Of a stretch of DNA of 64,000 bases, positions 37,903 to 53,673 are shown one piece after another. The DNA comes from a virus, in the IMG/VR virus record IMGVR_UViG_3300042896_000714, positions 38,341-102,340 of that record. The stretch is one strand, 5' to 3'. The first letter of the stretch is position 1. Each line of letters starts with the position of its first letter. The position numbers and the translations under genes are program-made. The notes beneath the pieces were generated by a model. It did not search any database. It had not been told where the DNA came from and saw only the letters and a list, made by a program, of their open reading frames with translations.

Positions 37903-37956
37903 AGTACTATTGTAATATAATTTATGCGCGATGTCAAGTAGTAGTTAAATACCCCT

Positions 37957-38955
37957 ATGCAATTCTCCTCCATACCATTTGATAAAATCACACGCTTCGG
38001 CCAGCAAACAATGCTTAACCGACCGCTGTTCTCAACTAGCTGGATACTAGGCAGGTTCTGCAATTATAACTGTTCATACTGTTGGCCGTATGCAAGATCT
38101 GACACTCTTGATTATCAACCATTGGACTTGTATAAAACCACAGTTTCTGAGATTAAAAGACAAGCTAGGATAAATGGCTTTACTGAATTTCATTGGTCAT
38201 TCAGCGGCGGTGAACCCACTGCATACAAACATCTACTAGAGCTAACTCGACATTTAGATGATGGGGCACAAACCCCGTATCAAAGTATTCATATGACTAC
38301 CAATTTATCGCCCAGCATTAACTGGTGGAAAAATTGGGCAGTATCAACGGAACTATTGCAACGCAGAAGCATCACTGCTAGCTTCCATGATGAGTTTGCT
38401 AAGGAGCAAGAGTTCGGTGATAAAATCATAGCATTGATGTATGAAGGTGTTCATGTTACGATTAATCAAGTCATGGTACCGGACACGTTTTATCAATTAT
38501 ACGATCGGCTTGAGCGATTTAAAAAGCGTGGAATTAACGTAACATTAAAGCCACAGAGCAACTCGACTGCGACTGCCATTGTAGACGGATATAGTGATGT
38601 CATGATGGGCTTGATGCGAGAATATGCAATACAACAATCGCACGGGATGGACTTGCATCAAATAGCATTATACGAAAAGGATGATACTGTACATTTTATT
38701 GATCAAGCAGAACGGTTTAATGCATTTGGGTTTAATAAATTCACCGATTGGGATTGTAATGCAGGATACCAGAGTGTTATAATAAAGGGTAACGAAATTA
38801 AACGCGGCTATAGTTGTCACGACATGCCTCTTGGTACATTAGATAGCGGATTTGAACTATTTAATAGCTCAAGAACATGTATAACCCCGAGCTGTGTAAG
38901 TTCAGCAGATTCAAAAATTCCCAAAAACAAACATGCACTTAATATCAATACATAA
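37957..38955 (+). CDS. Radical SAM protein with C-terminal Cys-rich (twitch-like) domain
   Basis: CNYNCSYC, FSGGEP, CNAG...C...CITPSC; TAAATA 5 nt before ATG. Confidence 0.92.
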   Translation: MQFSSIPFDKITRFGQQTMLNRPLFSTSWILGRFCNYNCSYCWPYARSDTLDYQPLDLYKTTVSEIKRQARINGFTEFHWSFSGGEPTAYKHLLELTRHLDDGAQTPYQSIHMTTNLSPSINWWKNWAVSTELLQRRSITASFHDEFAKEQEFGDKIIALMYEGVHVTINQVMVPDTFYQLYDRLERFKKRGINVTLKPQSNSTATAIVDGYSDVMMGLMREYAIQQSHGMDLHQIALYEKDDTVHFIDQAERFNAFGFNKFTDWDCNAGYQSVIIKGNEIKRGYSCHDMPLGTLDSGFELFNSSRTCITPSCVSSADSKIPKNKHALNINT

Positions 38956-39937
38956 CAATTGGCGGGATGAAGTGTTGCATATTGATTTAAATCTTGGCAA
39001 CTACTGTAATTATAAATGCTGGTATTGTTGGCCAGGATCAAATTACGGCACGCACAAATTTCCGAATTTAGAGATCATTAAACAAAACATCGCGCACTTG
39101 ATTAATTACTACAAGACGCATACTAATAAAAAAGTATTCGATGTGCATTTCTGTGGTGGCGAGCCCACTCATTGGCCAAAGCTTCCGGAATTTATTAAGT
39201 TTTTAAAAACAGAATTTAACTGTTTAATATCAATGACTTCCAACGGTTCTAAAAACTTAAACTGGTGGCAACAGCACGCCCAGCTGTTTAATCGAATTCA
39301 CATGAGCTGCCATCATGAGTTCGTAGAGATGGAATCATATCGAAAACTGTGTGATTACTTATACGAACAGCACGTAGTCGTAAGTGTATCAGTAATGATG
39401 GATCCAAATGCATGGGACAAGTGCATAGGATTAGTTGAATACTTCAAAAGAAGCCAACGGAAATGGACTATTCGATATGTCGAAATAATAGACAAAACTG
39501 TTAATTATTCGCCAGATCAATACTTAGTATTAAACAAACACAGAGCCAGGCGTGTTAATTTGTGGTTCTTTATTCGAAATAATAAACATTATACAAGTAA
39601 AGTAACGGCAATAGACAAAACAGGTAAAAAATATAAATTTAAAGATAATGAAATATTATTAAAAAAGCTCAATCAATTTAATGGTTGGGAATGTTCCGTG
39701 GGAGTGCATTGGTTAAATATCTCTATGACTGGCGTCATTTCAGGAACATGCAATCAAAAAATTTACGGACAATCGTATCATTATAACTTATACGATCCAC
39801 AATTTACAGAAAAATTTCATCCTACAATCAAACCGTCAATTTGCGAACAGGTTACGTGCGTGTGCAGCATTGAAACGGTTATGCCTAAACAGCTACTAGA
39901 AAAAACAAGAACAGTGATACCGATTTATGCAAATTGA
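38933..39937 (+). CDS. Radical SAM protein with C-terminal Cys-rich domain
   Basis: CNYKCWYC, CGGEP, CSVG...CEQVTCVC. Confidence 0.92.
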   Translation: MHLISIHNNWRDEVLHIDLNLGNYCNYKCWYCWPGSNYGTHKFPNLEIIKQNIAHLINYYKTHTNKKVFDVHFCGGEPTHWPKLPEFIKFLKTEFNCLISMTSNGSKNLNWWQQHAQLFNRIHMSCHHEFVEMESYRKLCDYLYEQHVVVSVSVMMDPNAWDKCIGLVEYFKRSQRKWTIRYVEIIDKTVNYSPDQYLVLNKHRARRVNLWFFIRNNKHYTSKVTAIDKTGKKYKFKDNEILLKKLNQFNGWECSVGVHWLNISMTGVISGTCNQKIYGQSYHYNLYDPQFTEKFHPTIKPSICEQVTCVCSIETVMPKQLLEKTRTVIPIYAN

Positions 39938-40529
39938 TCTACCACATTTACATTACTGGATGCAAGCAATTCGGCAAAGTCCAGATCCGATTAGAACGTT
40001 AGATGCGTTCTGGAGTGGGCAAATAAAAAGCAAAGAATGGTTAATTACACAATTAGCACCATTTATTAATAAACGAGTTAATGTGGATATACACGGCGGA
40101 TGGGTAGGGACGTTGGCTAGCATGCTGTTTCAAAGTTCAATTCCAGTAGACACGATTCGAAGTATCGATATTGACTATACTTGTGAAGCCACTTCGACTA
40201 TGATGAATATGGCTGAGGCATTAGTCGGTCGGTTTAAGGCTATAACTTGCGATATGTGTACTATCGAAAGTTATGCTGATGTTATTATCAATACAAGTTG
40301 CGAGCATATTACACAAGCACAATATGATCAATGGTTAAATGCCATTCCAAATGGTAGCTTAATCGTACTTCAAAGTAATAATTATAAAATACCAGAACAT
40401 ATTCGAAATGCCGATTCTATAGAAGAATTTATAGCACAGAGTGCTATAAATGTGTTATTTTCAGATTCATTAAAATTGCCACTATATTCCCGCTACATGA
40501 TTATTGGACGAAAATATGTTTCAGTTTAA
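39927..40529 (+). CDS. Putative class I SAM-dependent methyltransferase
   Basis: IHGGWVG glycine loop, SIDID, DVIINTSCEH, VLQSNN. Confidence 0.7.
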   Translation: MQIDLPHLHYWMQAIRQSPDPIRTLDAFWSGQIKSKEWLITQLAPFINKRVNVDIHGGWVGTLASMLFQSSIPVDTIRSIDIDYTCEATSTMMNMAEALVGRFKAITCDMCTIESYADVIINTSCEHITQAQYDQWLNAIPNGSLIVLQSNNYKIPEHIRNADSIEEFIAQSAINVLFSDSLKLPLYSRYMIIGRKYVSV

Positions 40530-41601
40530 TGAATTACAAACACTGCATGTCGAACTAACGTCTAAATGCCAAGCAAAATGCCCCATGTGCATCAGAAATT
40601 ACCATGGTGGAATTATAAACCCAAATTTAAAATTAACTGATATATCAATTGACGAATTTAAAAATATTATAACTTGCAAGGTTTTACAACAAATAAGAAA
40701 TATCTACTTTTGTGGCAATTATGGTGATCCCATAATGTCAAATCATTTAATTAGTATTGTCCAGTACTGCGTGGAAATCAATCCATCGATTGAAATAAGT
40801 ATACACACTAACGGCAGTGCAAGATCTAAAGAGTGGTGGGAGCTCCTTGCGCATTCCCTGCCAAAATTTCATAAAGTTCACTTTGCATTAGACGGGTTGC
40901 GTGATACACATCACTTATATCGAATTGGTACGCATTTTGAGACTATTATAGAAAATGCTAAGGCTTTTATAAAAGCTGGTGGGCTAGCAGAGTGGACATT
41001 CCTGTCGTTTGATCACAATCAACATCAAATAGAAGAGGCTCGGCAAATGGCAAAGCATCTCGGATTTTCTAATTTTTCGCACAAGGCAACTAGCCGATTT
41101 GTAGCTACACCATGGTTTGATGTTTTGGATAAAACTGGTAACGTAGTGTATAAAATTAAACCTGCTACTGAACATGTTTTGAATTATATCGCCCCTGAAG
41201 TAATCAAGTCATATCGTAACCACTTTGATAACGCAGAGATTAAATGTAGAATACAAACAGACAAAAGCTTGTATATTGATGCAAATAAAATGCTGTGGCC
41301 ATGCTGTTGGATTGGGGCTATACCGTATAGTTATTCTCGATCAACTGATTTAGTATATCAATATCAGCAAGATCAATCAATGGCATTAACTAAATTAATA
41401 AATGACATAGGTGGGTATGCTACTATAGATCTACATAACCACTCTATTGAAGACATATTAAACAACCCAATATGGCAGAACATTTGGCAGGAGTATTGGG
41501 CAAAAAAGGAGCCTGGCACTTGCATTCGAACTTGTGGGATTTTTCCTAAAAAAATACTAAGCAATTTTGATGAGCAATGGATTAACACCGAATCATTATA
41601 A
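40516..41601 (+). CDS. Radical SAM/SPASM protein
   Basis: CQAKCPMC, CGNYGDP, HTNG, YIDANKMLWPCC, CIRTC; start moved to MFQFNE. Confidence 0.9.
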   Translation: MFQFNELQTLHVELTSKCQAKCPMCIRNYHGGIINPNLKLTDISIDEFKNIITCKVLQQIRNIYFCGNYGDPIMSNHLISIVQYCVEINPSIEISIHTNGSARSKEWWELLAHSLPKFHKVHFALDGLRDTHHLYRIGTHFETIIENAKAFIKAGGLAEWTFLSFDHNQHQIEEARQMAKHLGFSNFSHKATSRFVATPWFDVLDKTGNVVYKIKPATEHVLNYIAPEVIKSYRNHFDNAEIKCRIQTDKSLYIDANKMLWPCCWIGAIPYSYSRSTDLVYQYQQDQSMALTKLINDIGGYATIDLHNHSIEDILNNPIWQNIWQEYWAKKEPGTCIRTCGIFPKKILSNFDEQWINTESL

Positions 41602-42882
41602 ATGTGTAAAAATAGTTTTATAATTTGTACCGCGGGTAACATCATACAATTCTAATACACGGAGTCGTTCAGTAATGACCTCATCATAGTCATCTGGAGT
41701 TTCTTTTATGTATTCAATAATCGAAGCTAGTTGTTCTATCGCAGTAGGAGATTCATGTAAAATTGTAAGATCTTGCGTTTTTAAAAAAATTTCAATTCGA
41801 TCAGTAATAGTTGCGCGTTGGATTTTATTCAAATATCTTATAGAAAAATAATTAGGATCGTTAACTAAATTAACCTGTATGTGCAATGGTTCGTTGTATT
41901 GCTGTCTAATGCGTTCCCAAGAAGTGAATATAACTTCAAAATCAAATATATTAAAAATACTCCATGTAGTGGATAGTTTCTTTGTTATGTGTTTAAAGTC
42001 AAATACTGCGTGTAAATTTTTTTGAAATGTTTCATACACTGCCGGATATCGAATAAATTCAAATTTTTCTGGATCAACATGATCATAACTAATATATAAG
42101 TCAGTATGTTTAAATTTATTAAGATGTGTGAATACACGTCTATTGATTGCTGAAAGATTAGTAATGATAGTTAGTGAAATTGTTTCATTATATTGATTTT
42201 CAATGCAGTCTTCTAGTATTGCTGTAGTAAATGGATTAATCAATGGTTCACCACCCACTAATGATAGAAATTTTGCCGTTTTAAGACATGGCCTTAAATT
42301 ATTAATTGATTGCATAATATCAAGTATGTCTGATCTAAAATTTTGAGAATTTAAATCAAAGGATGCAACATGTGTTTCCCACTTAACTGCCATTGAAGGC
42401 AAGGAAATACCTTGAGATTTCCATGTATTAATTTCTTCTTGATGTAAACTGCTTGCACCAGCATAACACATAATACATTTTAAATTACACAATGTTCCTA
42501 TTTTTAAATCAACATCGACAGGTAACGATGATATTGTACCAGCATTACTAATGGCGTCTTGTATATATGAATCGTACGATTCATAAGATGACATATGTTG
42601 CTCATTATTTAAATTTCTTGGAGAATACATACCGTTTTCTTCTTGAGTTTTGCAATGAGCACAGTTAGATGGCCACTTGCCATCTAACATATCATTTCTG
42701 ATGGATTTGTAAGAATCTGAATTCCATACTTCGATAATAGAATTAGCACGAACATTGAATGTGATATTATTCGTATCCGTAATTGGCGTTAGTGATTGAC
42801 AACATACTCTGTAGGTTCCGTTGTTTAGCGTTGATATGTGTGTAAACGGTAATACACAGAAGGTTGGATATTTCTTTAGCAT
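41596..42882 (-). CDS. Radical SAM protein with N-terminal SPASM/twitch-like domain
   Basis: FCVLPF..VCC..NCAHC; CNLKCIMC; VGGEP. Confidence 0.92.
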   Translation of the reverse strand: MLKKYPTFCVLPFTHISTLNNGTYRVCCQSLTPITDTNNITFNVRANSIIEVWNSDSYKSIRNDMLDGKWPSNCAHCKTQEENGMYSPRNLNNEQHMSSYESYDSYIQDAISNAGTISSLPVDVDLKIGTLCNLKCIMCYAGASSLHQEEINTWKSQGISLPSMAVKWETHVASFDLNSQNFRSDILDIMQSINNLRPCLKTAKFLSLVGGEPLINPFTTAILEDCIENQYNETISLTIITNLSAINRRVFTHLNKFKHTDLYISYDHVDPEKFEFIRYPAVYETFQKNLHAVFDFKHITKKLSTTWSIFNIFDFEVIFTSWERIRQQYNEPLHIQVNLVNDPNYFSIRYLNKIQRATITDRIEIFLKTQDLTILHESPTAIEQLASIIEYIKETPDDYDEVITERLRVLELYDVTRGTNYKTIFTHL

Positions 42883-42886
42883 ATAG

Positions 42887-42901
42887 TATTTAAGTTAAAT
42901 A
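42887..42901. promoter_or_regulatory. Back-to-back TAAATA late-type promoters
   Basis: tattta 42887-42892 (minus strand, 4 nt before ATG) and taaata 42896-42901 (plus strand). Confidence 0.65.
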
Positions 42902-42918
42902 AATTACAAAAGGAATTT

Positions 42919-44343
42919 ATGAAAAAAATAGAAAAAGTTTATTGGTTACGCCCAATCGACTCGCAATTAGGAAAATGGCAGCAGCAAATTACTGACATTG
43001 CGAAATCGCCATCGTTTTGCGTGCTTCCTTGGATACACCTTGCTACGCGACCGAATGGCGATATGCGAATTTGTTGTGTTGCTAATGCAAGCGGTGCAGA
43101 GTCTGGTGACTATACTGTTGGTTTAGTGAAAAAAGAAAACGGAAGTCCTGCAAATTTTGGTTCTGACTTGCCTACTGAAGCATTTAATAGCAGTTACATG
43201 AAATCTGTACGTAAAACTATGATAGATGGCAATGTTCCGGCAAGTTGCCTTAAGTGCTATGAAGAAGAGGCGCAAGGAATTGCAAGTAAACGGATATGGG
43301 AAACTGGCACATGGCATTACGATGGTATTAATATTCCGGAATTAATTGCAAACACATCTGATGATGGTGAAGTACCTTACAAATTGGAGTATTTAGATCT
43401 TAGGTTAGGGCATACTTGCAATTTAAAGTGTATTATGTGTAGTCCCCATGATAGCAGTAAATGGGTGGCCGATCATAAAAAAGTATTTCCAATTTTTAAA
43501 AGTGATGTAATAAAAAAACAAATGTCATGGGATCGCAAAAATTTCAATAATTTTTGGCATGAAAATCCAGAGTTTTGGCGAGAAATATACGATCAAATTC
43601 CTAACTTAAAGCAACTCTACTTCGCCGGCGGTGAACCATTAATGATTCGAGAACACACATTGTTTTTAGAAGAGATTATTAAACGGGGATATGCTAGTAA
43701 AATTTCGTTACGGTATAATACAAATGGACTTTTGATCGACGATAGTATCATCGCCATTTGGAGTCAATTTCGCAAAGTTAAAGTCGGAGTAAGTTTAGAT
43801 GGAATGGGTGACCGTGTACACTACATTAGATATCCGACTAACTGGGAAATAGTGAAAGCCAATTTATGGAAACTGGATAATACACCTGACAATATACATT
43901 GTAATATTGCATTAGCAGTTCAAAATTTAAACATCAAGCATATACCGGAATTTATTAAATGGAAAGTGTCTAGTGGCTTTAAAAAATTAAACTTTGAAAA
44001 AAATGTTGCAGGCCAAACAAATGGCGGTGGATTGATAGGTGTACATTTGTTGTGGATTCCGACATGGTTAAGTCTTAGGGTCCTTCCTAAAGAAGACAAG
44101 GATGAAGTGCATCAATTATTTAATGATTTAAAAGATTGGTTATGGCTTAATTACACACAAGATGTTGAATTTTGGGAAACTAACCCATATGGGTGGAAAA
44201 GGTGGGAAGGTATTTTAGAATGGATGGATGCTGAGGATCATTCAAATTTATTACCCGATTTTCGTGATTATATATCAACAATGGATGCTCATCGAGGAAC
44301 GGATTTTAAAAAAACATTCCCAGAGATTGCGCATTTACTCTAA
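42919..44343 (+). CDS. Radical SAM protein with N-terminal SPASM/twitch-like domain
   Basis: FCVLPW..ICC..SCLKC; CNLKCIMC; AGGEP; YNTNG. Confidence 0.93.
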   Translation: MKKIEKVYWLRPIDSQLGKWQQQITDIAKSPSFCVLPWIHLATRPNGDMRICCVANASGAESGDYTVGLVKKENGSPANFGSDLPTEAFNSSYMKSVRKTMIDGNVPASCLKCYEEEAQGIASKRIWETGTWHYDGINIPELIANTSDDGEVPYKLEYLDLRLGHTCNLKCIMCSPHDSSKWVADHKKVFPIFKSDVIKKQMSWDRKNFNNFWHENPEFWREIYDQIPNLKQLYFAGGEPLMIREHTLFLEEIIKRGYASKISLRYNTNGLLIDDSIIAIWSQFRKVKVGVSLDGMGDRVHYIRYPTNWEIVKANLWKLDNTPDNIHCNIALAVQNLNIKHIPEFIKWKVSSGFKKLNFEKNVAGQTNGGGLIGVHLLWIPTWLSLRVLPKEDKDEVHQLFNDLKDWLWLNYTQDVEFWETNPYGWKRWEGILEWMDAEDHSNLLPDFRDYISTMDAHRGTDFKKTFPEIAHLL

Positions 44344-47516: not shown

Positions 47517-47568
47517 TCTCTTTGCACAGACACATTCCTACTCCGTCGACTTTAATATTTGTTGTCAT
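47488..47568 (-). other. 26-codon mini-ORF MTTNIKVDGVGMCLCKESEWAIDQSK (peptide or deleted-gene remnant)
   Basis: Manual translation; start overlaps the end of the PLP gene and stop overlaps the start of the radical SAM gene. Confidence 0.45.
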
Positions 47569-48409
47569 TTTCTAAATACCTGATAAGAGGGCTTATACCT
47601 ACTGGTTGTCCTGCGTTTAACGCAAGATAAATGCTATGGGTGGGGGTTAAATTAAAATCAGCACAAATTTTATAGTAGTGACTGCTATATGTTTTCCACA
47701 AGTAGTCACTCGGTACATTCCGTAAAAAGTGTAACCCAATCATTACCAACACCCTATTATTCATATGAAAATCATTCATTATTGTGATACTATCTTGCTT
47801 GAATTGTCTACTCCAACGTAAGCCGATTCGGTTCCATCCTAGTCCGAGCCCTTTGCTTAAACTGATGCCAACGCTATGAATGGCAGGATGAAAAAAATCA
47901 AATACTATATCCTTACAACACGTGATCCATGCACCGTCTATATGTACTGGAATATTTTTAAGTAGACATTCATTTAATATCTCCGCCATATCAGTATGCA
48001 CTGCCCCAGTACTAGGAAATGGCATTGCAATAATCAATGGAATATTTGGAATTAATGAGCCAACATCTTTAAAGATGCATTGTTGTAATCTTTCGTGATA
48101 TTTGTAATCGGTTCGTAATACTTGGACTAAGCCATTCATATAAATCGCATCAATAAACTGAGTGCAGCCGATACAAATGTCTTTCCTTTCAAATTTATCT
48201 AAACCGGTTAATTTATTAACTGCAGAATTTAAAAGCCATTCTTCGCATTCTATTTTAAAGTCATTATATACATTATCACTTATATCCTTATTGATTTTTC
48301 CAGCTAATATATCTACGATTAGTGATTCTAAATAATTATCAGATAGCGGCTGCGGCCGATCGGTTTCTAACCATTGGCTAGTGTATGCTGGTGCAATTTT
48401 TGTTCTCAT
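47552..48409 (-). CDS. PLP-dependent enzyme (fold type I, aminotransferase-like)
   Basis: VHIDGAW, ISLSKGLGL (Schiff-base Lys), RIG. Confidence 0.8.
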   Translation of the reverse strand: MRTKIAPAYTSQWLETDRPQPLSDNYLESLIVDILAGKINKDISDNVYNDFKIECEEWLLNSAVNKLTGLDKFERKDICIGCTQFIDAIYMNGLVQVLRTDYKYHERLQQCIFKDVGSLIPNIPLIIAMPFPSTGAVHTDMAEILNECLLKNIPVHIDGAWITCCKDIVFDFFHPAIHSVGISLSKGLGLGWNRIGLRWSRQFKQDSITIMNDFHMNNRVLVMIGLHFLRNVPSDYLWKTYSSHYYKICADFNLTPTHSIYLALNAGQPVGISPLIRYLENDNKY

Positions 48410-48413
48410 AAAT

Positions 48414-48443
48414 TATTTACCTTAGTACACAAGGGCATAAATA
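48414..48443. promoter_or_regulatory. Divergent TAAATA late-type promoters, both leaderless
   Basis: tattta 48414-48419 (4 nt to minus-strand ATG) and taaata 48438-48443 (5 nt to plus-strand ATG). Confidence 0.65.
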
Positions 48444-48448
48444 TTTTT

Positions 48449-49123
48449 ATGTTAAAACAAACTCCATACTCAGTATCGAAGGCATTGCTAGATATAGCTG
48501 CAAATACTCCGCTGCTTTCTGATTTTAAAAATACAATAAATGCGCCGACTGGTAAATTCTTTTATGATAAATGGGAACTGTTACCTGTTTACAAAGGCAC
48601 TGTCTGGGAGGAAATTATGAATACACTTCCCGTTGACTGCGGCGAAGCACGTTTAATAAGACTTGGGCCAGGGACATGCTACAATAGTCATGCTGATATA
48701 GATGATAGATACCACTTAAACATAACAGGAAATTATTGTTACTTAGTTAATATAGACACTGCGTCTATGTATAAACTGATTAAAGACGGGATATGGTATG
48801 ACTTCAATGCAGGCCCACGTCACAGCGCTGTTAATTTTGGAGATGTACCCCGTACGCAGCTAGTAATTCGAAAATTATTAAAAAATAATACGTTGCAAGA
48901 CCCAGTTAATGTATCAATTATAGTAGAAAACATGCCATTATCCAATGCAAGGTATATTTTTGATGACACTGTTAGCTTATGGCTAAACCATGCAGTAAAG
49001 CAAGGAATATTGACTGGTTTCGATTATTCGAATAATGGCACGGTTTGTTTTACCGTAGAAAGATCGCATTTACATGAAGTTGCAACTATTTTACCAAAAG
49101 GGTTTATTTTAAATCATGATTGA
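48449..49123 (+). CDS. 2OG-Fe(II)/cupin oxygenase-like (Asp/Asn beta-hydroxylase-like)
   Basis: ARLIRL.PG.CY.SHADID.RYHL...RHSAVN...RTQLV. Confidence 0.72.
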   Translation: MLKQTPYSVSKALLDIAANTPLLSDFKNTINAPTGKFFYDKWELLPVYKGTVWEEIMNTLPVDCGEARLIRLGPGTCYNSHADIDDRYHLNITGNYCYLVNIDTASMYKLIKDGIWYDFNAGPRHSAVNFGDVPRTQLVIRKLLKNNTLQDPVNVSIIVENMPLSNARYIFDDTVSLWLNHAVKQGILTGFDYSNNGTVCFTVERSHLHEVATILPKGFILNHD

Positions 49124-49799
49124 CATTTCAGATTGGGGATTCTATAATAAAATAGATCCCGAAGATCTTACGCGATGTAAGACAAATTTATTATATACTC
49201 CCAGAGTCAGTCCAGACGGAAAATTGATGTGCATGGATTGGGATATCACTAGTCCGTATCAAAATGATGGAACTCGGTTGGATTATACAGAAGAATTGCT
49301 ACAATTCTTCTTTGATAAAGAAGTTCAGTTTTTAGAAAAATTTAAATATAAACCGTATGCTCCGGAAATTATTAGCATTGATATGGACCGCAAGCGTATA
49401 TTTTTTAAATGGTATGGCACCACTTGCAATGACATTGTATACTCTAAGGGGGAGTTAGCTGATAGCTCTCTTGATTGGCAAAAACAATTAACAACAATTA
49501 TTGAAGATATATTCATCGAAGGCAGTTATAAACTAAGTTTATATCCACATTGTTTTTACTTTGATGATAATAAAAAATTAAGAACTTTTGATTTTTATGC
49601 GTGTGCAAATAAAGACGATTGCCTAATAGAAATTGATAAAATCAAAGGCATGTTAGGACTCGGCTCAGTGACTAGATTTACAGAAGCAACTAAAAATAAT
49701 ATAATTGATTTTGGCATTTTCTTTAAACGGTCATTAGAACATCATATCAAGTGGCCCACTGAACCGCTGCATCAACTATACACAAAATTATATGAATAA
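49116..49799 (+). CDS. Protein-kinase-like fold protein
   Basis: FDKEVQFL..YAPEII..., L..FDFY (DFG-like); paralogue of 52416..53108. Confidence 0.55.
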   Translation: MIDISDWGFYNKIDPEDLTRCKTNLLYTPRVSPDGKLMCMDWDITSPYQNDGTRLDYTEELLQFFFDKEVQFLEKFKYKPYAPEIISIDMDRKRIFFKWYGTTCNDIVYSKGELADSSLDWQKQLTTIIEDIFIEGSYKLSLYPHCFYFDDNKKLRTFDFYACANKDDCLIEIDKIKGMLGLGSVTRFTEATKNNIIDFGIFFKRSLEHHIKWPTEPLHQLYTKLYE

Positions 49800-50328
49800 C
49801 ATTAATTGGGATGGAATAATTGCAAACTTAACATCACTCGAAGGAGAAACTGTTAGTACTGATGCTTCTCGGTGGAACATGGAAAATCTAGAATATTCAA
49901 AAATACACAATATGTGGAAAGAGGCACAGTTTAATGAAGCTGCAATGAAATGGACTAACTATTATCCTGGCAAACATTTTTCCGAAGATATTGTTAATGC
50001 AGTTGCATCTGAATTAAATTTAGTAGTTTTTAGATCTTGGATTAGCAGAGTTGATCCTGGGTTTTTTGCACCTTGGCACTGGGACGTTGATGATCACGAA
50101 GAAGAATATTTAAAAGTTGCTCCGATTGTTCGATATAGCTGTTTTATCACCCCGCCGCAAATGGGTCATATTTTTATATTAGGAGATGCATATTACTTTA
50201 AACAACCACAGGGCACACTACTGCGGTGGAATACTTATAGAGATTGGCACACTGGGATTAATGCTGGATTAAAGCCAAAATTTATGTTTCATATTGTGGG
50301 CCATCTACGTAATATGCAAAATACCTAA
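49792..50328 (+). CDS. 2OG-Fe(II)/cupin oxygenase-like
   Basis: WISRVDPG..APWHWD...WHTGIN...KFMF. Confidence 0.7.
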   Translation: MNNINWDGIIANLTSLEGETVSTDASRWNMENLEYSKIHNMWKEAQFNEAAMKWTNYYPGKHFSEDIVNAVASELNLVVFRSWISRVDPGFFAPWHWDVDDHEEEYLKVAPIVRYSCFITPPQMGHIFILGDAYYFKQPQGTLLRWNTYRDWHTGINAGLKPKFMFHIVGHLRNMQNT

Positions 50329-50862
50329 ATTATCATTTATTTTTTGAATTGTGTAATCAGTCAATTTTAATTCAAAATTAAATTGGGTTATACGTGGATT
50401 ATTTAACCACCATGCAATTGTGTCAATTACCTCTGAATATAATATAGGCAAGTCTGTGCTTACTGCATCTTCTAGCATGGATAGTTTTAAAAATACAATA
50501 GTAGTTAGTGGATTTCGACTAATCTCCAGACATCGATGTTCAAGTATATGACTGTTATATGCATATGATTTATACTCTTCATTAATTAGATCAAACATAT
50601 CCCCTGCAACGGAGCCCATAGTAATTGTCTTACCCACTAAGTTGTAGGTTTTATTTAACAATGTGAGTTGCGCATTACTGACTGCAGCATTGTTAATAAA
50701 CAAATCTGCCCCTTTAATAATTTCAATTGCATCATCAATGTCAGTTAATAAATTGATACCAGTTGTTCTCGAAATTCCAATAACTTCCCAACCTTGCGAC
50801 TTGAAATAAGTGAATAGTGCTTTACCTAATCCAGTGGTATGCCCAGTTATTACACATTTCAT
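50305..50862 (-). CDS. Short-chain dehydrogenase/reductase-like NAD(P)-binding protein
   Basis: VITGHTTGLG, GISR, DLFINNA, ITMGS; canonical YxxxK is degenerate. Confidence 0.78.
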   Translation of the reverse strand: MKCVITGHTTGLGKALFTYFKSQGWEVIGISRTTGINLLTDIDDAIEIIKGADLFINNAAVSNAQLTLLNKTYNLVGKTITMGSVAGDMFDLINEEYKSYAYNSHILEHRCLEISRNPLTTIVFLKLSMLEDAVSTDLPILYSEVIDTIAWWLNNPRITQFNFELKLTDYTIQKINDNLGILHIT

Positions 50863-50911
50863 ATTTTACCGCCATACTAATAAGTCGTATTTATCGAATA
50901 AATAACTGCAT

Positions 50912-51544
50912 ATGATTAATAAAACTGTTATTAAATTAAATTTTTCGATAGATATCACACTAGTTAAACAATACTATGAAACGCTAATTAAAGACTTCTC
51001 TCATAAACGATGGGTAGTTGGAGAACAATTGCAATATATTAGCGCAGGTCGGGCAGAGTTATCACAACTAACAGATGATGCAGCATTGCGGGATGTCACC
51101 ATGCAATTATCTGGTTGGGGTATTTTGGACTATACTGATAATGACAGCCAAATCATGCCACCATGGGGTATCACTACTGGTGTAGGGTGTATTCGAAAGA
51201 AGAGTGATTTAGAATTTGGAATTGCTGCTGAATTAATTAATAAAATACCAGGAGTTCGCCGTGCTGCGTTGTCAGTTATCCCAATGGGTGCAGAAATCAT
51301 TAAACATTCTGATGAAGACATGGTAATTCATGTTCCGTTATATTCGCCAGTAAACTCTAAATTTATCTTTCACGATCCAGACTACACAGAGTATACATTA
51401 GATGCTGACGGATCAGTATATCTATGCGACACTAGAATCCCACATGAAGTAAAAAATCAAGGACCAGGTGATCGCGTACATTTATTTCTGTTTGTTGATC
51501 CTAATATACTAACCACTGATATTCTTACAAGAACAGTGTTATAA
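50912..51544 (+). CDS. Asp/Asn beta-hydroxylase-like 2OG-Fe(II) oxygenase
   Basis: IIKHSD..IHVPL..DGSVYLCDTRIPHEVKN..RVHL; TAAATA 50899-50904. Confidence 0.78.
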   Translation: MINKTVIKLNFSIDITLVKQYYETLIKDFSHKRWVVGEQLQYISAGRAELSQLTDDAALRDVTMQLSGWGILDYTDNDSQIMPPWGITTGVGCIRKKSDLEFGIAAELINKIPGVRRAALSVIPMGAEIIKHSDEDMVIHVPLYSPVNSKFIFHDPDYTEYTLDADGSVYLCDTRIPHEVKNQGPGDRVHLFLFVDPNILTTDILTRTVL

Positions 51545-51545
51545 A

Positions 51546-52361
51546 TTAGTAAAAATCTAAATGATTTACTCCTAATTTTTTTCTAAATTCTTCAGTAAAT
51601 TTACCGTCAATGCGTAAGCTATAACTCTGCTCCATAATTTTCTCACCACCGTGCCAGTCTTGATCATTAAACCACGCTGCACGCGTATTTAAATAAATCT
51701 TATTTTTGGTATCTGGGTCCCATATGTAAAATGCTTTCTTAGTATTGGGTCGAATGTGAATAAATTCATTACGATGTGCCGTGTACTCGCTGTCGCCTAA
51801 TATACCGTGCACGTCCTCACCTAGATCTCGATGCTCAAAAGCTAAGCCGTCAGCCTCTAAATGAAATATTAGCACCCGTCCAATATATTCAAAAATATTA
51901 TTAGATACGAGCTTCTCAACCCAACTAACTAATTCTGGAAAATGCTCAGCTTCAGAAGTCAGTTTACGGGGAGTTGTTCGATCCGACCAGGACCCTTCAC
52001 CCCAGAGGAAGTAATATACATATGGGTCATAAGCCCCCATTGCGTGCTTAACATATCGTGTAAATTTATTCCGTTGTTTAAAATTTCCGAAGTCTTTATA
52101 TAGCGGCATTCCTTCAACTTTAATAGGATGATCATCTGGTAACTGCAAAAATTCTTCAATTGCCTTGTATACTGGTTTAAAGTTTACCGTATAACTCATA
52201 GCATCAAATTTAAAACCGGGCCGCATCCACGTACCCTCTTTTGCAAACTCGCGTGCCTCAGCAAATCCACGATAAATCTTTGATTGCATTGCATCAAATT
52301 CAACCATATCGAGATATGGCTCAATGTTTATATATGCTTGATTGTTTATACCTTTGATCAT
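51546..52361 (-). CDS. 2OG-Fe(II)/cupin oxygenase-like protein
   Basis: GRVLIF..FEHRD..FIHI..FNDQDWHGG..YSLRIDG; start moved to MIKGINN. Confidence 0.62.
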   Translation of the reverse strand: MIKGINNQAYINIEPYLDMVEFDAMQSKIYRGFAEAREFAKEGTWMRPGFKFDAMSYTVNFKPVYKAIEEFLQLPDDHPIKVEGMPLYKDFGNFKQRNKFTRYVKHAMGAYDPYVYYFLWGEGSWSDRTTPRKLTSEAEHFPELVSWVEKLVSNNIFEYIGRVLIFHLEADGLAFEHRDLGEDVHGILGDSEYTAHRNEFIHIRPNTKKAFYIWDPDTKNKIYLNTRAAWFNDQDWHGGEKIMEQSYSLRIDGKFTEEFRKKLGVNHLDFY

Positions 52362-52415
52362 AAAATTTTGTTTCCTGTTGTGTATATAGATATATATCTG
52401 TATTAAGGATGGATT

Positions 52416-53108
52416 ATGAAATTTCAATACTACTGGAATAATGTTCCGGGACACGGGCAATGCCGAAATAATTTAATTTATACCAGTTTAATATCAGAAG
52501 ATGCTAATACATTCGTGCAATGGTACTTTAATGATATCGGTTATCATAAAGCGCAAAATCAAGTAGTTGATTCAGATAAAATGGACGAGAAATGGCATCG
52601 TGAGATAAAATATCTCACACTAATGCAACGGACCTATCCAGAGTTAGTTCCTGAAATAATTAACATTGACTACATCTCTAAAAAAGTTTATCTTAAAATA
52701 GACGGTCCTGATTTTTGGGAACAATCTGGATGCACGATTGAAAATTATAGTAAAGTATTACCAGACTGGGAAGATCAAATGCTAGCTATTGTAAAAGCAC
52801 ACAAGGATTTGGGATTATTTAAATACAGCATGCATCCTAGTAGCTACTTCATAGTAAATGGTAAATTAAAAAGTATCAATTACTTTTTTACTTATGATAA
52901 AAATGACATACCAATAAGTATATCAGATGTTGAAAGTCATATATACACAACCCGGCAATCAGAAATGCGCAAGCATATTAACAAATTGGGTGTTGAATGG
53001 GATACTCCGCAATCGTTTGAAGTGCTAGAACAACTATGCTGGGCAAGCTTTAGTACAAACTATCCAGCCAGTTTTATAAAAAAAGTAACTGCAATGATCG
53101 GTTCATAA
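52416..53108 (+). CDS. Protein-kinase-like fold protein
   Basis: NLIYT, REIKYL..ELVPEIINID, W..Q...I, KYSMHP shared with 49116..49799. Confidence 0.55.
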   Translation: MKFQYYWNNVPGHGQCRNNLIYTSLISEDANTFVQWYFNDIGYHKAQNQVVDSDKMDEKWHREIKYLTLMQRTYPELVPEIINIDYISKKVYLKIDGPDFWEQSGCTIENYSKVLPDWEDQMLAIVKAHKDLGLFKYSMHPSSYFIVNGKLKSINYFFTYDKNDIPISISDVESHIYTTRQSEMRKHINKLGVEWDTPQSFEVLEQLCWASFSTNYPASFIKKVTAMIGS

Positions 53109-53109
53109 T

Positions 53110-53673
53110 ATGTATAAAATAATACCATGGTCGCCTGATATTGATTTACGTGAATTTTATAAAACGGCAACAACGAGGGGGTTTATTAATAACGCAAGTC
53201 AAAAAATGCTAGTTGATAGTATTTCAAATGAAAAGGAATGGCGCGTTTGGATTCTTTATTATAATACTATTGCCGTAGGAAGTGTTGCAGCGCATACCTT
53301 TCCAGAAATGGGAGATAACGCATACCGAATTGCGGCCCGGACCTGTGTATTTACTGATCAGTTACCTGGCTGCTACGGTAGTGCACTAAGGACAATAAGT
53401 GTTATTACTAAACATCAAAACCCCACAGCGCAGTTTTTAATTCCAGTTTGCATAAATTGGGCACCGATTGGTTCAAAATTGTATATTACATCCAACGAGA
53501 GTGCAATTGGCACTCAACGATTGGTTCATAAAATATTTGGGCCAGCGTTGGAAAAGAAAGGCATAATGAAACGTATTAATAATATGGTTTATAGAGGAAC
53601 ATCCCAAACAGTCTGGGAGGTTTTTCCTGATGCATTCTTTAACGATTTAGCAAAATATCCCACGTGGAGTTAA
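53110..53673 (+). CDS. Putative GNAT-like acyltransferase
   Basis: WILYY...VGSVAAH...YRIAARTCV and LYITSN pattern resembling the GNAT fold; weak. Confidence 0.45.
   Translation: MYKIIPWSPDIDLREFYKTATTRGFINNASQKMLVDSISNEKEWRVWILYYNTIAVGSVAAHTFPEMGDNAYRIAARTCVFTDQLPGCYGSALRTISVITKHQNPTAQFLIPVCINWAPIGSKLYITSNESAIGTQRLVHKIFGPALEKKGIMKRINNMVYRGTSQTVWEVFPDAFFNDLAKYPTWS

What the first reader, a model, noticed from the sequence alone, without database searches (positions are those of the whole stretch)
37957..53673. Phage-encoded ~16 kb biosynthetic/modification cluster: 8 radical-SAM enzymes plus methyltransferase, PLP enzyme, 4 oxygenases, 2 kinase-like proteins, SDR and GNAT
Seen: 18 consecutive enzyme-like genes; eight carry CxxxCxxC plus auxiliary Cys-rich SPASM/twitch-like domains, followed by tailoring-type folds. 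Established: this enzyme set (SPASM radical SAM, PLP aminotransferase, 2OG-Fe(II) hydroxylases, kinase, SDR, acyl- and methyltransferase) is the toolkit of RiPP maturation, aminosugar tailoring and base hypermodification. Inference: the phage encodes a multi-step pathway with no product I can name, which may chemically decorate virion proteins or attached glycans, modify DNA, or make a small molecule. This is the best candidate for an undescribed system in the window.
Basis: partly seen in the sequence, partly recalled or inferred. Interest (0 to 1): 0.92.

Follow-up and report, generated by a model that had tools for sequence, protein, structure and literature searches.

The report
Jumbo-phage radical-SAM tailoring enzyme island
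An uncultured giant lake-water phage devotes 16 kb to 18 back-to-back modifying enzymes, eight of them iron-sulfur "radical SAM" enzymes; the block is real, conserved in related phages and shared with predatory Bdellovibrio-type bacteria, and it most likely edits a sugar-like molecule, but its product is still unknown.

Summary
Window 37957-53673 carries 18 tightly packed ORFs, and eight are radical SAM (rSAM) enzymes with CxxxCxxC. Three of these, plus a ninth gene at 26968-28428, belong to NCBIfam NF033640 (N-terminal twitch rSAM). I know of no assigned reaction for that family and found none in the paper searches.

The rest are:
- a class-I/II-type PLP enzyme (confident fold);
- a methyltransferase-like protein (motifs only);
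- four cupin/AspH-like oxygenases, with support ranging from Pfam-level to motif-only;
- two protein-kinase-like folds;
- a weak SDR;
- one unassigned protein (the "GNAT" is not confirmed).

The core recurs in 15 related phage contigs with shuffled order and swappable accessories. Operon starts carry a T4-late-like TAAATA motif. There is no room for a precursor peptide.

Cellular homologues are mostly in Bdellovibrionota (61 of 77 loci), in arrays of up to nine copies beside GT2 glycosyltransferases. The PLP gene always abuts an N-twitch rSAM there.

Best reading (about 0.45): a late-expressed pathway that tailors a carbohydrate-type substrate by rSAM oxidation, PLP amination and then decoration. 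The product and its target are unknown.

Multi-rSAM phage modules were reported without function in 2010 and 2017. This scan has also found the same kind of island on other DNA several times.

The parts
37957..38955 (+). radical SAM enzyme with C-terminal Cys cluster (family 5); first gene of the conserved 5-4-0 module
   Evidence: CNYNCSYC at residue 35 and C-terminal Cys 267/287/308/313. Pfam Radical_SAM 47 bits. 61-73% identical in 15 related loci.
38933..39937 (+). radical SAM enzyme with C-terminal Cys cluster (family 9)
   Evidence: CNYKCWYC at residue 25. Pfam Radical_SAM 40.8 bits.
39927..40529 (+). class-I SAM-methyltransferase-like protein (family 4)
   Evidence: Invariant GGW.G, IDIDP and NTSCEHI motifs in 12 homologues. 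No database hit. A homologue sits in the Bdellovibrio locus L028. The domain is fused to GT2 in one longer protein.
40504..41601 (+). radical SAM enzyme (family 0)
   Evidence: CQAKCPMC at residue 22. Pfam 46.9 bits. phrog_21308 at 2.7e-25. Distant full-length homologue in Campylobacter phage CP220 (gp083, E 1.4e-18).
41596..42882 (-). N-terminal-twitch radical SAM enzyme (NF033640; family 59)
   Evidence: NF033640 at 277 bits against a cut-off of 170. Pfam SPASM at residues 9-78 precedes Radical_SAM at 128-294.
42919..44343 (+). N-terminal-twitch radical SAM enzyme (NF033640; family 1)
   Evidence: NF033640 at 398 bits. Model pLDDT 84. The barrel is nearest to anSME, CteB, BlsE and SkfB at Z 10.7-11.9. 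3558 homologues in metagenomes.
44335..45360 (-). short radical SAM enzyme with N-terminal SPASM/twitch motif (family 115), specific to this phage
   Evidence: Pfam SPASM at residues 6-69. CNLACVGC at residue 106. No homologue in the 16 related loci.
45353..46252 (-). radical SAM enzyme with C-terminal twitch-like motif (family 2), translationally coupled to the upstream N-twitch gene
   Evidence: CNYSCSYC at residue 24. Conserved C-terminal C.AG...DG.V..C...C..C.C. An 8-nt overlap with family 6 is invariant in 13 loci. A fused family-6-core plus family-2 ORF occurs in L030.
46245..47516 (-). N-terminal-twitch radical SAM enzyme (NF033640; family 6)
   Evidence: NF033640 at 324 bits. 61-83% identical in relatives.
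47552..48409 (-). truncated class-I/II-type PLP enzyme (family 7), leader of the minus-strand operon 48409 to 44335
   Evidence: Model pLDDT 90. Foldseek matches PatB, AspAT, HisC and CobD at E about 1e-8. Invariant lysine in SLSK, and HIDGAW. All 9 cellular homologues are adjacent to an N-twitch rSAM.
48374..49123 (+). AspH-like cupin oxygenase (family 8); true start probably 48449
   Evidence: Pfam Asp_Arg_Hydrox at 16.9 bits, below the cut-off. hhalign to the AspH group gives E 4e-5. Invariant H106, D108 and H150. Start evidence.
49116..49799 (+). protein-kinase-like fold protein (family 11, paralogue of 52416)
   Evidence: Clusters with 52416. Fold evidence comes from the paralogue.
49792..50328 (+). 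small cupin-like protein with HxD...H (family 3), oxygenase assignment unproven
   Evidence: Invariant H96, D98 and H153 in 12 homologues. hhalign to AspH is not significant. Best PDB hit is a beta-hydroxylase at E 0.17.
50305..50862 (-). short SDR/epimerase-like Rossmann protein (family 14)
   Evidence: Pfam Epimerase 21.8 bits over residues 4-70 only. Weak NCBIfam SDR hits.
50912..51544 (+). Asp/Asn beta-hydroxylase-family oxygenase (family 116)
   Evidence: Pfam PF05118 at 32.5 bits against a cut-off of 22.6. Weak hit to the lipid A hydroxylase LpxO.
51546..52460 (-). AspH-like protein (family 13); true start probably 52361
   Evidence: ESM Atlas feature score 0.95 to an Asp_Arg_Hydrox cluster, and the Atlas record starts at residue 34. 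Invariant H210, D212 and H270. hhalign is not significant.
52416..53108 (+). protein-kinase-like fold protein (family 11)
   Evidence: ESM Atlas structure search gives TM 0.55-0.64 to RIO1, Kdo, APH and Pkinase clusters. The same fold is fused to GT25 or a methyltransferase in other phages.
   Evidence: No hit in Pfam, NCBIfam, PHROGs or PDB. Present in L014, L020 and L023.
53670..54719 (-). neighbouring tail-fibre-like gene (not an enzyme)
   Evidence: Pfam Mtd_N at 25.5 bits. phrog_9729 tail fibre at 3.4e-12. TATAAATA lies upstream. The same island-fibre junction occurs in L014 and L019.
26968..28428 (-). satellite ninth N-terminal-twitch radical SAM gene (family-28 type), which lies inside the island in relatives L010, L011 and L022
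   Evidence: NF033640 at 285 bits. 41% identical to the in-island gene of L010. 36% identical to Ralstonia phage RsoM2USA gp202.
37903..37956 (.). divergent promoter-like region with TAAATA
42883..42918 (.). divergent promoter-like region with TAAATA facing both ways
48410..48448 (.). divergent promoter-like region with TAAATA facing both ways (after start correction)
50863..50911 (.). divergent promoter-like region with TAAATA facing both ways

Best explanation
The island is one late-expressed, multi-enzyme tailoring pathway whose substrate is carbohydrate-like: a sugar, a nucleotide-sugar, an aminocyclitol or a glycan.

Proposed logic (inferred):
1. Radical SAM enzymes with an auxiliary twitch cluster abstract a ring hydrogen. 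They then oxidise or rearrange a secondary alcohol, as BtrN, anSME, DesII and BlsE do.
2. The PLP enzyme, which is always adjacent to an N-twitch rSAM, converts the resulting carbonyl to an amine.
3. The methyltransferase, the two kinase-like proteins, the AspH-type hydroxylases and the reductase-like protein decorate the amine and the hydroxyls. In relatives, a StrB1-like amidinotransferase, PP-loop enzymes and further aminotransferases do the same.
4. Paralogue number and accessory content vary between close relatives, so the product is a variable, cassette-built decoration.

Its destination is unresolved. A glycoconjugate on the virion, perhaps the neighbouring fibre, or on the infected cell is favoured over a free metabolite.

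Shown here: the enzyme folds and families, conservation, operon structure, the promoter motif and the cellular homologues' context. Inferred: the substrate class, the order of reactions and the destination.
For: (1) The island is a unit.
- Families 5, 4, 0, 1, 9, 2, 6, 7 and 8 recur in 15 related phage loci at 45-85% identity.
- Genes are packed with a median gap of -8 nt.
- Sub-modules are conserved: 5-4-0, and 6 followed by 2 with an invariant 8-nt overlap.

(2) Promoter motif.
- All six operon leaders in the window carry TAAATA within 60 nt. So do the fibre gene and a 2559-aa gene.
- 23 of 130 genes genome-wide carry it, against about 4 expected.
- In relatives, 25 of 44 leaders carry it against 6 of 130 internal genes, with 2% expected by chance.

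(3) Cellular context.
- 61 of 77 loci from 185,579 species genomes are Bdellovibrionota.
- Arrays reach nine N-twitch paralogues and include families 0, 2, 4, 5, 7, 8, 9, 16, 17 and 33.
- The commonest other neighbour is GT2: 32 copies in 13 loci at a median distance of 1.8 kb, and 13 of 128 neighbours in a second tally. Carbamoyltransferase, AsnB and PMT_2 also occur.
- In the isolate Bdellovibrio sp. HCB2-146, six GT2 genes interleave with the homologous rSAM, methyltransferase, cupin and GNAT genes. The cluster lies next to a 1355-aa fibre protein with a Peptidase_S74 domain.

(4) PLP-rSAM linkage.
- All 9 cellular PLP homologues abut an N-twitch rSAM.
- A StrB1-type amidinotransferase (E 7e-23 to inosamine-phosphate amidinotransferase) sits beside them in L067 and L069 and in phage loci L012, L013 and L021.

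(5) Nearest solved rSAMs.
- anSME (Z 11.9), CteB, BlsE and SkfB by structure.
- Viperin-like enzymes, BlsE, MoaA and Tes by profile.
- These include sugar- and nucleoside-acting enzymes and twitch/SPASM dehydrogenases.

(6) Fusions linking the accessory domains to glycosyltransferases.
- The kinase-like fold is fused to GT25 in other phages.
- The methyltransferase domain is fused to GT2 in one protein.

(7) A cultured analogue exists. Campylobacter phage CP220 places family-0-type rSAMs, an amidinotransferase and two GT-A-like genes behind its baseplate genes.
Against: - No glycosyltransferase, sugar-nucleotide activation gene, flippase or polymerase lies in the phage island.
- No GT2 was found on five related phage contigs. 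Only one GT1-type gene is on this contig, about 55 kb away.
- The PLP enzyme resembles amino-acid class I/II aminotransferases and C-S lyases, not the DegT sugar aminotransferases.
- The closest solved rSAMs also include peptide maturases (CteB, SkfB, SuiB), and all matches are weak: Foldseek TMq is about 0.3.
- AspH-type hydroxylases and protein-kinase-like folds are at least as typical of protein substrates.
- Fibre adjacency in cellular loci was seen clearly in only two of 77.
- 'Late' timing rests on analogy with the T4 TATAAATA promoter, not on expression data.
Confidence: 0.45

Rival explanations
1. Direct post-translational modification of phage structural proteins, for example the adjacent fibre, with no sugar involved. 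AspH-type enzymes hydroxylate Asp/Asn, kinase-like proteins phosphorylate, the methyltransferase methylates, and twitch rSAMs epimerise, cross-link or oxidise residues of a full-length protein rather than a leader-bearing peptide.
For: - The late-type promoter motif is shared with virion genes.
- The island abuts a fibre gene here and in L014 and L019.
- The Bdellovibrio cluster abuts an S74 fibre protein.
- AspH and protein-kinase-like folds are classic protein modifiers.
- The nearest rSAM structures include anSME, CteB and SkfB, which act on proteins or peptides.
- No glycosyltransferase lies in the island.
Against: - In cellular loci the same enzymes are interleaved with many GT2s, carbamoyltransferases and a StrB1-type amidinotransferase, which act on small amines or sugars.
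- A PLP aminotransferase or lyase has no obvious role on a folded protein.
- The fibre gene is not a constant neighbour in relatives.
Confidence: 0.2
2. Biosynthesis of a free small molecule made during infection or predation, acting on the host, the prey or competitors. It would be aminocyclitol- or aminoglycoside-like, or another amino-acid- or sugar-derived metabolite.
For: - The toolkit parallels aminoglycoside pathways: twitch rSAM plus aminotransferase (the BtrN/BtrS logic), a StrB1-like amidinotransferase, kinase-like (APH-type) folds, TobZ-type carbamoyltransferases in cellular loci, and an oxygenase/reductase pair.
- The authors of cyanophage S-SCSM2R annotated a similar trio as 'antibiotic synthesis genes' (PMC12801897).
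- The PLP enzyme is of the amino-acid-type class.
Against: - No scaffold-forming enzyme (inositol-phosphate or 2-deoxy-scyllo-inosose synthase), exporter or resistance gene was seen in the phage island.
- Late co-expression with virion genes and cassette-like variability fit a surface decoration better.
- The amidinotransferase is absent from this window.
Confidence: 0.15
3. Hypermodification of phage DNA bases or nucleotide pools. This could be further elaboration of the 7-deazaguanine made elsewhere on the contig, or a thymidine-type hypermodification using kinase, PLP, rSAM and acyl- or methyltransferases.
For: - The published thymidine hypermodification toolkits use kinase, PLP, rSAM and acetyltransferase (own knowledge of Lee et al. 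2018, not re-read here).
- Relatives carry QueC-like PP-loop proteins inside the island: family 31 at E 1e-7 and family 10 weakly.
- CP220-type phages, which carry many rSAMs, are known for deazaguanine DNA (own knowledge).
- The closest rSAM profiles include the nucleotide-acting viperin and MoaA.
Against: - The homologous clusters in Bdellovibrionota sit among glycosyltransferases, not DNA-metabolism genes.
- Late-type promoters are unusual for DNA-modification genes in T4-like phages (inference).
- The kinase-like proteins have a protein-kinase/Kdo fold, not the P-loop fold of 5-HMUDK.
- The QueC-like genes are missing from this phage.
- Pfam TGT was not detected on the five contigs searched.
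Confidence: 0.1
4. No single pathway: a hot spot that accumulates independent paralogous enzymes, such as auxiliary metabolic or counter-defence genes, each acting alone.
For: - Gene order is shuffled and accessory genes come and go between close relatives.
- Timms et al. called the CP220 rSAM block an interchangeable, probably non-essential module (PMC2853527).
Against: - Nine families are co-conserved across phages and across domains of life.
- Translational coupling and gene fusions link members: 6+2, 1+6 and 16+17.
- The operons share a promoter motif.
Confidence: 0.07
5. Classical RiPP cluster: SPASM/twitch rSAMs mature a small precursor peptide encoded in the island.
For: - SPASM/twitch rSAMs are a mainstay of RiPP pathways (PMC11002830).
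- A 26-aa overlapping mini-ORF exists at 47488-47568.
Against: - In 17 loci almost no intergenic gap reaches 40 nt, and none recurs.
- No peptidase, transporter or recognition domain was detected.
- In relatives the site of the mini-ORF is occupied by a PP-loop gene.
Confidence: 0.03

Closest known systems
NCBIfam NF033640, N_Twi_rSAM (twitch domain-containing radical SAM protein)
   Same: Four genes of this phage score 277-398 bits against a cut-off of 170. They show the defining order: an N-terminal Cys-rich twitch motif followed by CxxxCxxC.
   Different: The family is only a sequence model. I know of no assigned reaction or substrate and found none in the papers searched. The island also holds four rSAMs of other architectures and ten non-rSAM enzymes.
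Radical SAM module of Campylobacter phages CP220 and CPt10 (Timms et al. 2010, PMC2853527)
   Same: A T4-related phage with 11-12 rSAM genes, five of them in an interchangeable central module with an amidinotransferase. The family-0-type rSAMs and the amidinotransferase are homologous to those of this island group.
   Different: CP220 carries two GT-A-like genes and a PAP2 phosphatase. In the fetched region only a weak partial match (gp099 region, E 4e-5) to an N-twitch-type rSAM was seen, and no AspH or kinase-like genes. Identities are about 24-27%. Its function is equally unknown.
BtrN/BtrS and StrB1 steps of aminoglycoside (2-deoxystreptamine, streptidine) biosynthesis
   Same: A twitch-cluster rSAM is paired with a PLP aminotransferase. 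In relatives a StrB1-like amidinotransferase (E 7e-23) is added, together with kinase-like and oxygenase/reductase helpers.
   Different: - The twitch domain is N-terminal, not C-terminal.
- The PLP enzyme is class I/II-like, not DegT-like.
- There is no cyclitol synthase and no glycosyltransferase in the phage island.
- The resemblance is one of logic, not of orthology.
anSME, CteB, SkfB and BlsE (SPASM/twitch subgroup of radical SAM enzymes)
   Same: These are the best structural matches to the rSAM barrel of 42919-44343: Z 10.7-11.9, rmsd 3.9-4.6 over 210-223 residues.
   Different: The matches cover the barrel only. The auxiliary-cluster domain is on the opposite end of the chain. Foldseek TM is about 0.3 for the whole protein. 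Substrates of the matches range from proteins to a nucleoside sugar.
T4-like marine viral genome with 12 rSAM genes (Nishimura et al. 2017, PMC5332604)
   Same: An uncultured T4-like phage with an unusually high rSAM count, noted in the context of Fe-S metabolism.
   Different: The paper only counted the genes. It described no island structure, partners or function.

Membership tests
Radical SAM superfamily (PF04055) | CxxxCxxC motif for the SAM-binding [4Fe-4S] cluster | tested here: met
   All eight island genes and the satellite gene carry it.
Radical SAM superfamily (PF04055) | Profile score above the Pfam gathering threshold | tested here: met
   Seven of eight score 31-47 bits against 29.5. 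The ORF at 44335 misses the threshold but has SPASM plus the motif.
NF033640 N_Twi_rSAM | Full-length score above 170 bits | tested here: met
   41596 scores 277, 42919 scores 398, 46245 scores 324 and 26968 scores 285 bits. 44335 scores only 51 bits and is not a member.
NF033640 N_Twi_rSAM | Twitch-type Cys motif N-terminal to the radical SAM core | tested here: met
   Invariant C34, C110 and C113, and near-invariant C53, precede C167/C171/C174 in 11 paralogues.
NF033640 N_Twi_rSAM | Binding of a second [4Fe-4S] cluster | not testable with these tools
   This needs spectroscopy or a structure with metals.
RiPP biosynthetic gene cluster | Precursor peptide gene in or beside the cluster | tested here: not met
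   The median gap is -8 nt and there is no recurrent free gap of 40 nt or more in 17 loci.
RiPP biosynthetic gene cluster | Leader peptidase, exporter or recognition element | tested here: not met
   None was found among the 18 ORFs with Pfam, NCBIfam or PHROGs.
Glycan / sugar-tailoring locus | Glycosyltransferase in the locus | tested here: not met
   None lies in the phage island, and no GT2 was found on five phage contigs. The feature is met in the homologous Bdellovibrionota loci.
Glycan / sugar-tailoring locus | Sugar-nucleotide activation or export genes | tested here: not met
   None was detected in the island. A relative has an APS-kinase-like protein with a weak cytidylyltransferase-like hit.
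Aminoglycoside-type aminocyclitol pathway | Twitch rSAM paired with an aminotransferase | tested here: met
   The PLP gene is next to an N-twitch rSAM here, in most phage relatives that carry it (separated by one or two genes in L009 and L010), and in 9 of 9 cellular cases. This is an analogy, not orthology.
Aminoglycoside-type aminocyclitol pathway | Cyclitol-forming synthase | tested here: not met
   No such family was hit in the island.
Aminoglycoside-type aminocyclitol pathway | StrB1-type amidinotransferase | tested here: not met
   It is absent from this genome fragment. It is present in relatives L012, L013 and L021 and in cellular loci.
Class I/II aminotransferase fold (PLP fold type I) | Fold and Schiff-base lysine | tested here: met
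   Foldseek probability is 1.00 to many class I/II enzymes. K186 in SLSK is invariant.
Class I/II aminotransferase fold (PLP fold type I) | Full two-domain length of about 360-400 aa | tested here: not met
   The protein is 285 aa, and TM normalised by target length is about 0.44.
Asp/Asn beta-hydroxylase family (PF05118) | Score over the cut-off and an HxD...H metal triad | tested here: met
   50912 scores 32.5 bits against 22.6. For 48374 (hhalign E 4e-5), 51546 and 49792, membership is inconclusive.
Thymidine/deazaguanine DNA hypermodification systems | DNA-acting transferase (DpdA/TGT or amino-acid:DNA transferase) and a P-loop hmU kinase in the cluster | tested here: inconclusive
   No such hit was found in the island, and Pfam TGT was not found on five contigs. 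Divergent phage versions may escape these models.
GNAT acetyltransferase (claim for 53110-53673) | Profile or fold match | tested here: inconclusive
   No hit in Pfam, NCBIfam, PHROGs or a PDB profile search. No structure was predicted.
Short-chain dehydrogenase (claim for 50305-50862) | TGxxxGxG plus a catalytic YxxxK | tested here: inconclusive
   The N-terminal glycine motif and weak hits are present. No clear YxxxK was seen by eye in 185 aa.

The most novel reading that the evidence does not exclude
N-terminal-twitch radical SAM enzymes are a large, unrecognised class of radical carbohydrate editors. Together with a dedicated PLP partner they install amino groups, and in relatives guanidino groups, on sugars or cyclitols. 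Giant phages and predatory Bdellovibrionota use swappable sets of them to diversify the chemistry of their host- or prey-recognition fibres or surfaces. Under this reading the island encodes a new, combinatorial glyco-decoration system that shapes host range.
Probability: 0.22. Interest if true: 0.85.

Novelty: new variant of a known kind. Interest (0 to 1): 0.66.

Why it matters
These islands are common and expensive.
- One island protein has more than 3500 metagenomic homologues.
- Some Bdellovibrionota genomes carry roughly 10-20 copies of the hallmark enzyme. One 1.9-Mb genome carries about 17.
- Related phages of about 350-390 kb keep 10-26 such genes.
- I found no assigned reaction for the hallmark family, and the published phage examples (2010, 2017, 2025) stop at annotation.

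Working out the chemistry would give new radical enzymology. It would also explain why viruses and bacterial predators, both of which must recognise other cells, share this toolkit. If the product decorates fibres or virions, it would add a chemical layer to host-range determination.

This report adds testable handles:
- the conserved PLP and N-twitch rSAM pair;
- the translationally coupled and sometimes fused N-twitch/C-twitch pair;
- the amidinotransferase accessory;
- cultured systems: CP220, RsoM2USA and Bdellovibrio sp. HCB2-146.

Tried and rejected
- DNA search of the island against 50,697 phage records: no match.
- Protein search of 37957 against the same records: no match.
- PDB profile searches for the methyltransferase-like, PLP, family-21 and family-3 proteins, and a single-sequence search for rSAM family 0: nothing significant.
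- Complex prediction on the coupled pair 46245-47516 and 45353-46252: no verdict, score 0.00. This counts neither for nor against binding.
- The look-up of sequencing runs: five lake or freshwater DNA runs hold the stretch, and no RNA holder is listed. There is therefore no expression evidence either way.
- Context of the Ralstonia phage RsoM2USA homologue: all neighbours are annotated as hypothetical.
- Fibre adjacency in cellular loci: similarity to the L028 fibre protein was found only in L035, and weakly in L085. It is not a general rule in my sample.
- Test of whether the N-terminal repeat domain of methyltransferase fusions matches the N-terminal extensions of the L028 GT2s: it does not.
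- hhalign of families 3 and 13 against the AspH group: not significant.
- Paper searches for 'N-terminal twitch' and for Bdellovibrio plus radical SAM: nothing relevant.
- The 26-aa mini-ORF at 47488-47568 was considered as a precursor peptide and set aside. It lies wholly in gene overlaps, and relatives have a PP-loop gene at that junction.

Full report
**What is there**

The window is the last 64 kb of a 102,340-bp IMG/VR phage record that CheckV rates 27% complete. Close homologues of its proteins sit on contigs of 190-390 kb, so this is a jumbo phage. The DNA is held by lake-water metagenomes.

Between 37957 and 53673 lie 18 ORFs with overlapping or nearly abutting ends. Eight have the CxxxCxxC radical SAM motif. 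Seven pass the Pfam Radical_SAM threshold. The eighth (44335-45360) has an N-terminal SPASM hit plus the motif.

Three genes (41596, 42919 and 46245) are full-length members of NCBIfam NF033640, 'twitch domain-containing radical SAM protein'. A ninth gene outside the island (26968-28428) is a member too. They score 277-398 bits against a cut-off of 170. In these proteins the Cys-rich auxiliary-cluster motif lies N-terminal to the radical SAM core. The other four rSAMs carry C-terminal Cys clusters of twitch/SPASM type.

**The non-rSAM genes**

- 47552-48409 folds with pLDDT 90 into a PLP fold-type-I enzyme. Its nearest structures are class I/II aminotransferases and C-S lyases such as PatB, AspAT, HisC and CobD. 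It has an invariant lysine in SLSK. At 285 aa it is truncated.
- 39927-40529 has conserved class-I methyltransferase motifs but no database match.
- 50912-51544 passes Pfam Asp_Arg_Hydrox.
- 48374-49123 is related to that group by profile-profile comparison, E 4e-5.
- 51546-52460 is AspH-like only by a language-model search.
- 49792-50328 has only an invariant HxD...H.
- 52416-53108 has a protein-kinase-like fold (RIO1/Kdo/APH). That fold is fused to a GT25 glycosyltransferase or a methyltransferase in other phages. 49116-49799 is its paralogue.
- 50305-50862 is a short Rossmann protein with weak SDR/epimerase hits.
- Two starts should probably move, to 48449 and 52361.

**The island is a conserved unit**

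A scan of IMG/VR with one N-twitch protein returned 16 loci. Fifteen of them share the core: rSAM families 5, 0, 1, 9, 2 and 6, the methyltransferase-like family 4, and cupin family 8. Identities are 45-85%. PLP family 7 is present in 10 of the 15.

Gene order is shuffled and accessory genes differ. Relatives add QueC-like PP-loop proteins, a class-III aminotransferase, a fatty-acid-desaturase-like protein, an APS-kinase-like protein, further AspH proteins and further rSAMs. They also add a StrB1-like amidinotransferase, E 7e-23 to inosamine-phosphate amidinotransferase.

Some sub-modules are fixed:
- Families 5-4-0 stay together.
- Family 6 (N-twitch) is followed by family 2 (C-twitch) with an identical 8-nt overlap in 13 loci.

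Fusions occur in MAG-derived loci from the genome scan. They are a family-6 core with family 2 (629 aa), family 1 with family 6 (876 aa), and AspH family 16 with family 17.

The islands are extremely compact. The median gap is -8 nt and almost no gap reaches 40 nt.

**Regulation (inferred)**

TAAATA lies within 60 nt upstream of 23 of 130 genes on the contig, against about four expected. These include all six operon leaders of the island, the neighbouring fibre gene (as TATAAATA) and a 2559-aa gene.

In the related loci, 25 of 44 operon-leading island genes have the motif, against 6 of 130 internal genes. About 2% would be expected by chance.

By analogy with the T4 late promoter TATAAATA (established knowledge), the island is probably expressed late, together with virion genes. 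No RNA data were available.

**Cellular relatives**

A scan of one genome per species (185,579 species) returned 77 loci. Sixty-one are from Bdellovibrionota, including an isolate and complete chromosomes. I obtained this before reading the earlier notes of the scan.

There the N-twitch genes form arrays of up to nine paralogues. Four genomes had roughly 10-20 copies over the cut-off, among them a 1.9-Mb genome with about 17. Of 121 sampled genomes of the phylum, 26 were positive. None of 14 model organisms has the family.

The arrays also contain homologues of island families 0, 2, 4, 5, 7, 8, 9, 16, 17 and 33. The commonest other neighbour is a GT2 glycosyltransferase, and carbamoyltransferase, AsnB, PMT_2, an ABC ATPase and MFS proteins also occur.

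In Bdellovibrio sp. HCB2-146, six GT2 genes are interleaved with the homologous rSAM, methyltransferase, cupin and GNAT genes. The cluster ends at a 1355-aa fibre protein with a Peptidase_S74 domain.

All nine cellular homologues of the PLP enzyme are immediate neighbours of an N-twitch rSAM. The amidinotransferase sits beside that pair in two loci.

**What it most likely does**

The N-twitch model has no close solved relative; whole-chain TM is about 0.3. Its barrel is nearest to the SPASM/twitch subgroup: anSME at Z 11.9, then CteB, BlsE and SkfB. Profile hits include viperin-like enzymes, BlsE, MoaA and Tes.

Twitch and SPASM enzymes such as BtrN and anSME oxidise a CH-OH or CH-SH group to a carbonyl. 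DesII and BlsE act on sugar rings (established enzymology).

I combine this with three observations: the fixed PLP partner, the amidinotransferase accessory, and the glycosyltransferase-rich cellular context. The most economical model is then a carbohydrate-type tailoring pathway. It would run as radical oxidation or rearrangement, then transamination, then decoration of N and O atoms by methyl, phosphate, hydroxyl and (in relatives) amidino groups. I give it 0.45.

The destination is open. The phage island has no glycosyltransferase. No GT2 was found on five related contigs. The only GT1-type gene on this contig is about 55 kb away. The PLP enzyme is of the amino-acid class rather than the DegT sugar class.

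Rivals and their weights:
- direct modification of virion proteins, 0.20;
- a free aminocyclitol-like or other metabolite, 0.15;
- DNA or nucleotide hypermodification, 0.10;
- an unlinked enzyme hot spot, 0.07;
- a classical RiPP, 0.03. The last is disfavoured by the lack of any space for a precursor gene and of a peptidase or exporter.

**Comparison with what is known**

- Timms et al. (2010, PMC2853527) reported 11-12 rSAM genes in Campylobacter phages CP220 and CPt10. Five of them lie in an interchangeable module with an amidinotransferase.
- I found that this module carries family-0-type rSAMs and an amidinotransferase homologous to those of the present island group, plus two GT-A-like genes behind the baseplate genes.
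- Nishimura et al. (2017, PMC5332604) counted 12 rSAM genes in a marine T4-like genome.
- A 2025 cyanophage paper (PMC12801897) annotated a PLP/rSAM/amidinotransferase trio as 'antibiotic synthesis genes' of unclear role.
- None of these assigns a function, and I found no reaction assigned to NF033640.

The scan's own earlier notes describe the same kind of island in many other phage genomes, with the same provisional reading. I treat those notes as leads only. My Bdellovibrionota, promoter and compactness results were computed here.

**Verdict**

This is a real, conserved and widespread enzyme island of unknown product. It is a new variant of a kind already noticed in the literature and repeatedly in this scan. 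What this report adds:
- the graded annotation of each ORF;
- the conserved PLP and N-twitch pair;
- the coupled and sometimes fused N-twitch/C-twitch pair;
- the promoter statistics;
- the evidence against a RiPP;
- cultured systems in which the function can be tested.

Noticed in passing
window 53670-54719 (-): The fibre-like protein next to the island contains about 2.5 tandem copies of a 33-aa unit. Each copy carries an N-T-T sequon (...DGTSWSNTTV...). The Bdellovibrio fibre protein beside the homologous cluster (L028:17248-21315) has a similar ...DGSGNLAWTS... motif near its N-terminus.
   Followed up: partly
window 48374-49123 and 51546-52460: The mechanical ORF starts are probably too early. 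Homologue alignment and the Atlas record point to ATG 48449 and ATG 52361. That opens a 39-nt divergent promoter region at 48410-48448 with TAAATA facing both ways.
   Followed up: yes
G006 (genome of L043), G008 (genome of L054): Bdellovibrionota genomes carry very large N-twitch rSAM expansions. A 1.9-Mb genome has about 17 copies over the cut-off and a 4.5-Mb genome about 21, mostly in a few tandem arrays.
   Followed up: partly
L030:103-1992, L058:13465-16095, L027:12540-14966, L032:11513-13468, L100:2386-4587: Natural fusions occur between island families: a family-6 rSAM core with family-2 rSAM, two N-twitch rSAMs in one 876-aa chain, and AspH family 16 with the unknown family 17, in both orders.
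   Followed up: partly
P0135-P0254: The methyltransferase-like domain of 39927-40529 occurs as the C-terminal half of 120 longer proteins from marine and other metagenomes. Their N-terminal half is a roughly 24-aa helical repeat (...LRKAV.E.NL.SIFR...) of unknown function. One 886-aa protein also carries a GT2 domain.
   Followed up: partly
L025 and L031 (Crocinitomicaceae MAG, contigs of 4.9 and 32.9 kb): L025 carries an island protein at 75% identity and L031 a more distant relative (41%). Both are binned with the same Crocinitomicaceae MAG. They are probably phage contigs, which may hint at a Flavobacteriales host. The window's GC content of about 38% would fit.
   Followed up: no
window 34854-35831 (+): A homing-endonuclease gene (phrog_655, 3.4e-37) sits between a metallophosphoesterase gene and the conserved left flank of the island (families 18, 19 and 15).
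   Followed up: no
window 47517-47551: In this phage the family-6 and PLP genes are 36 nt apart. In several relatives a QueC-like PP-loop gene (family 10, about 245 aa) occupies this junction. No copy exists elsewhere on the 102-kb contig.
   Followed up: yes
L104 (Campylobacter phage CP220, 70690-84766 of NC_027997.1): The CP220 rSAM block lies directly behind the baseplate lysozyme and PAAR genes. It includes two GT-A-like genes and a PAP2 phosphatase. It is a cultured system in which the function of such islands could be tested.
   Followed up: partly
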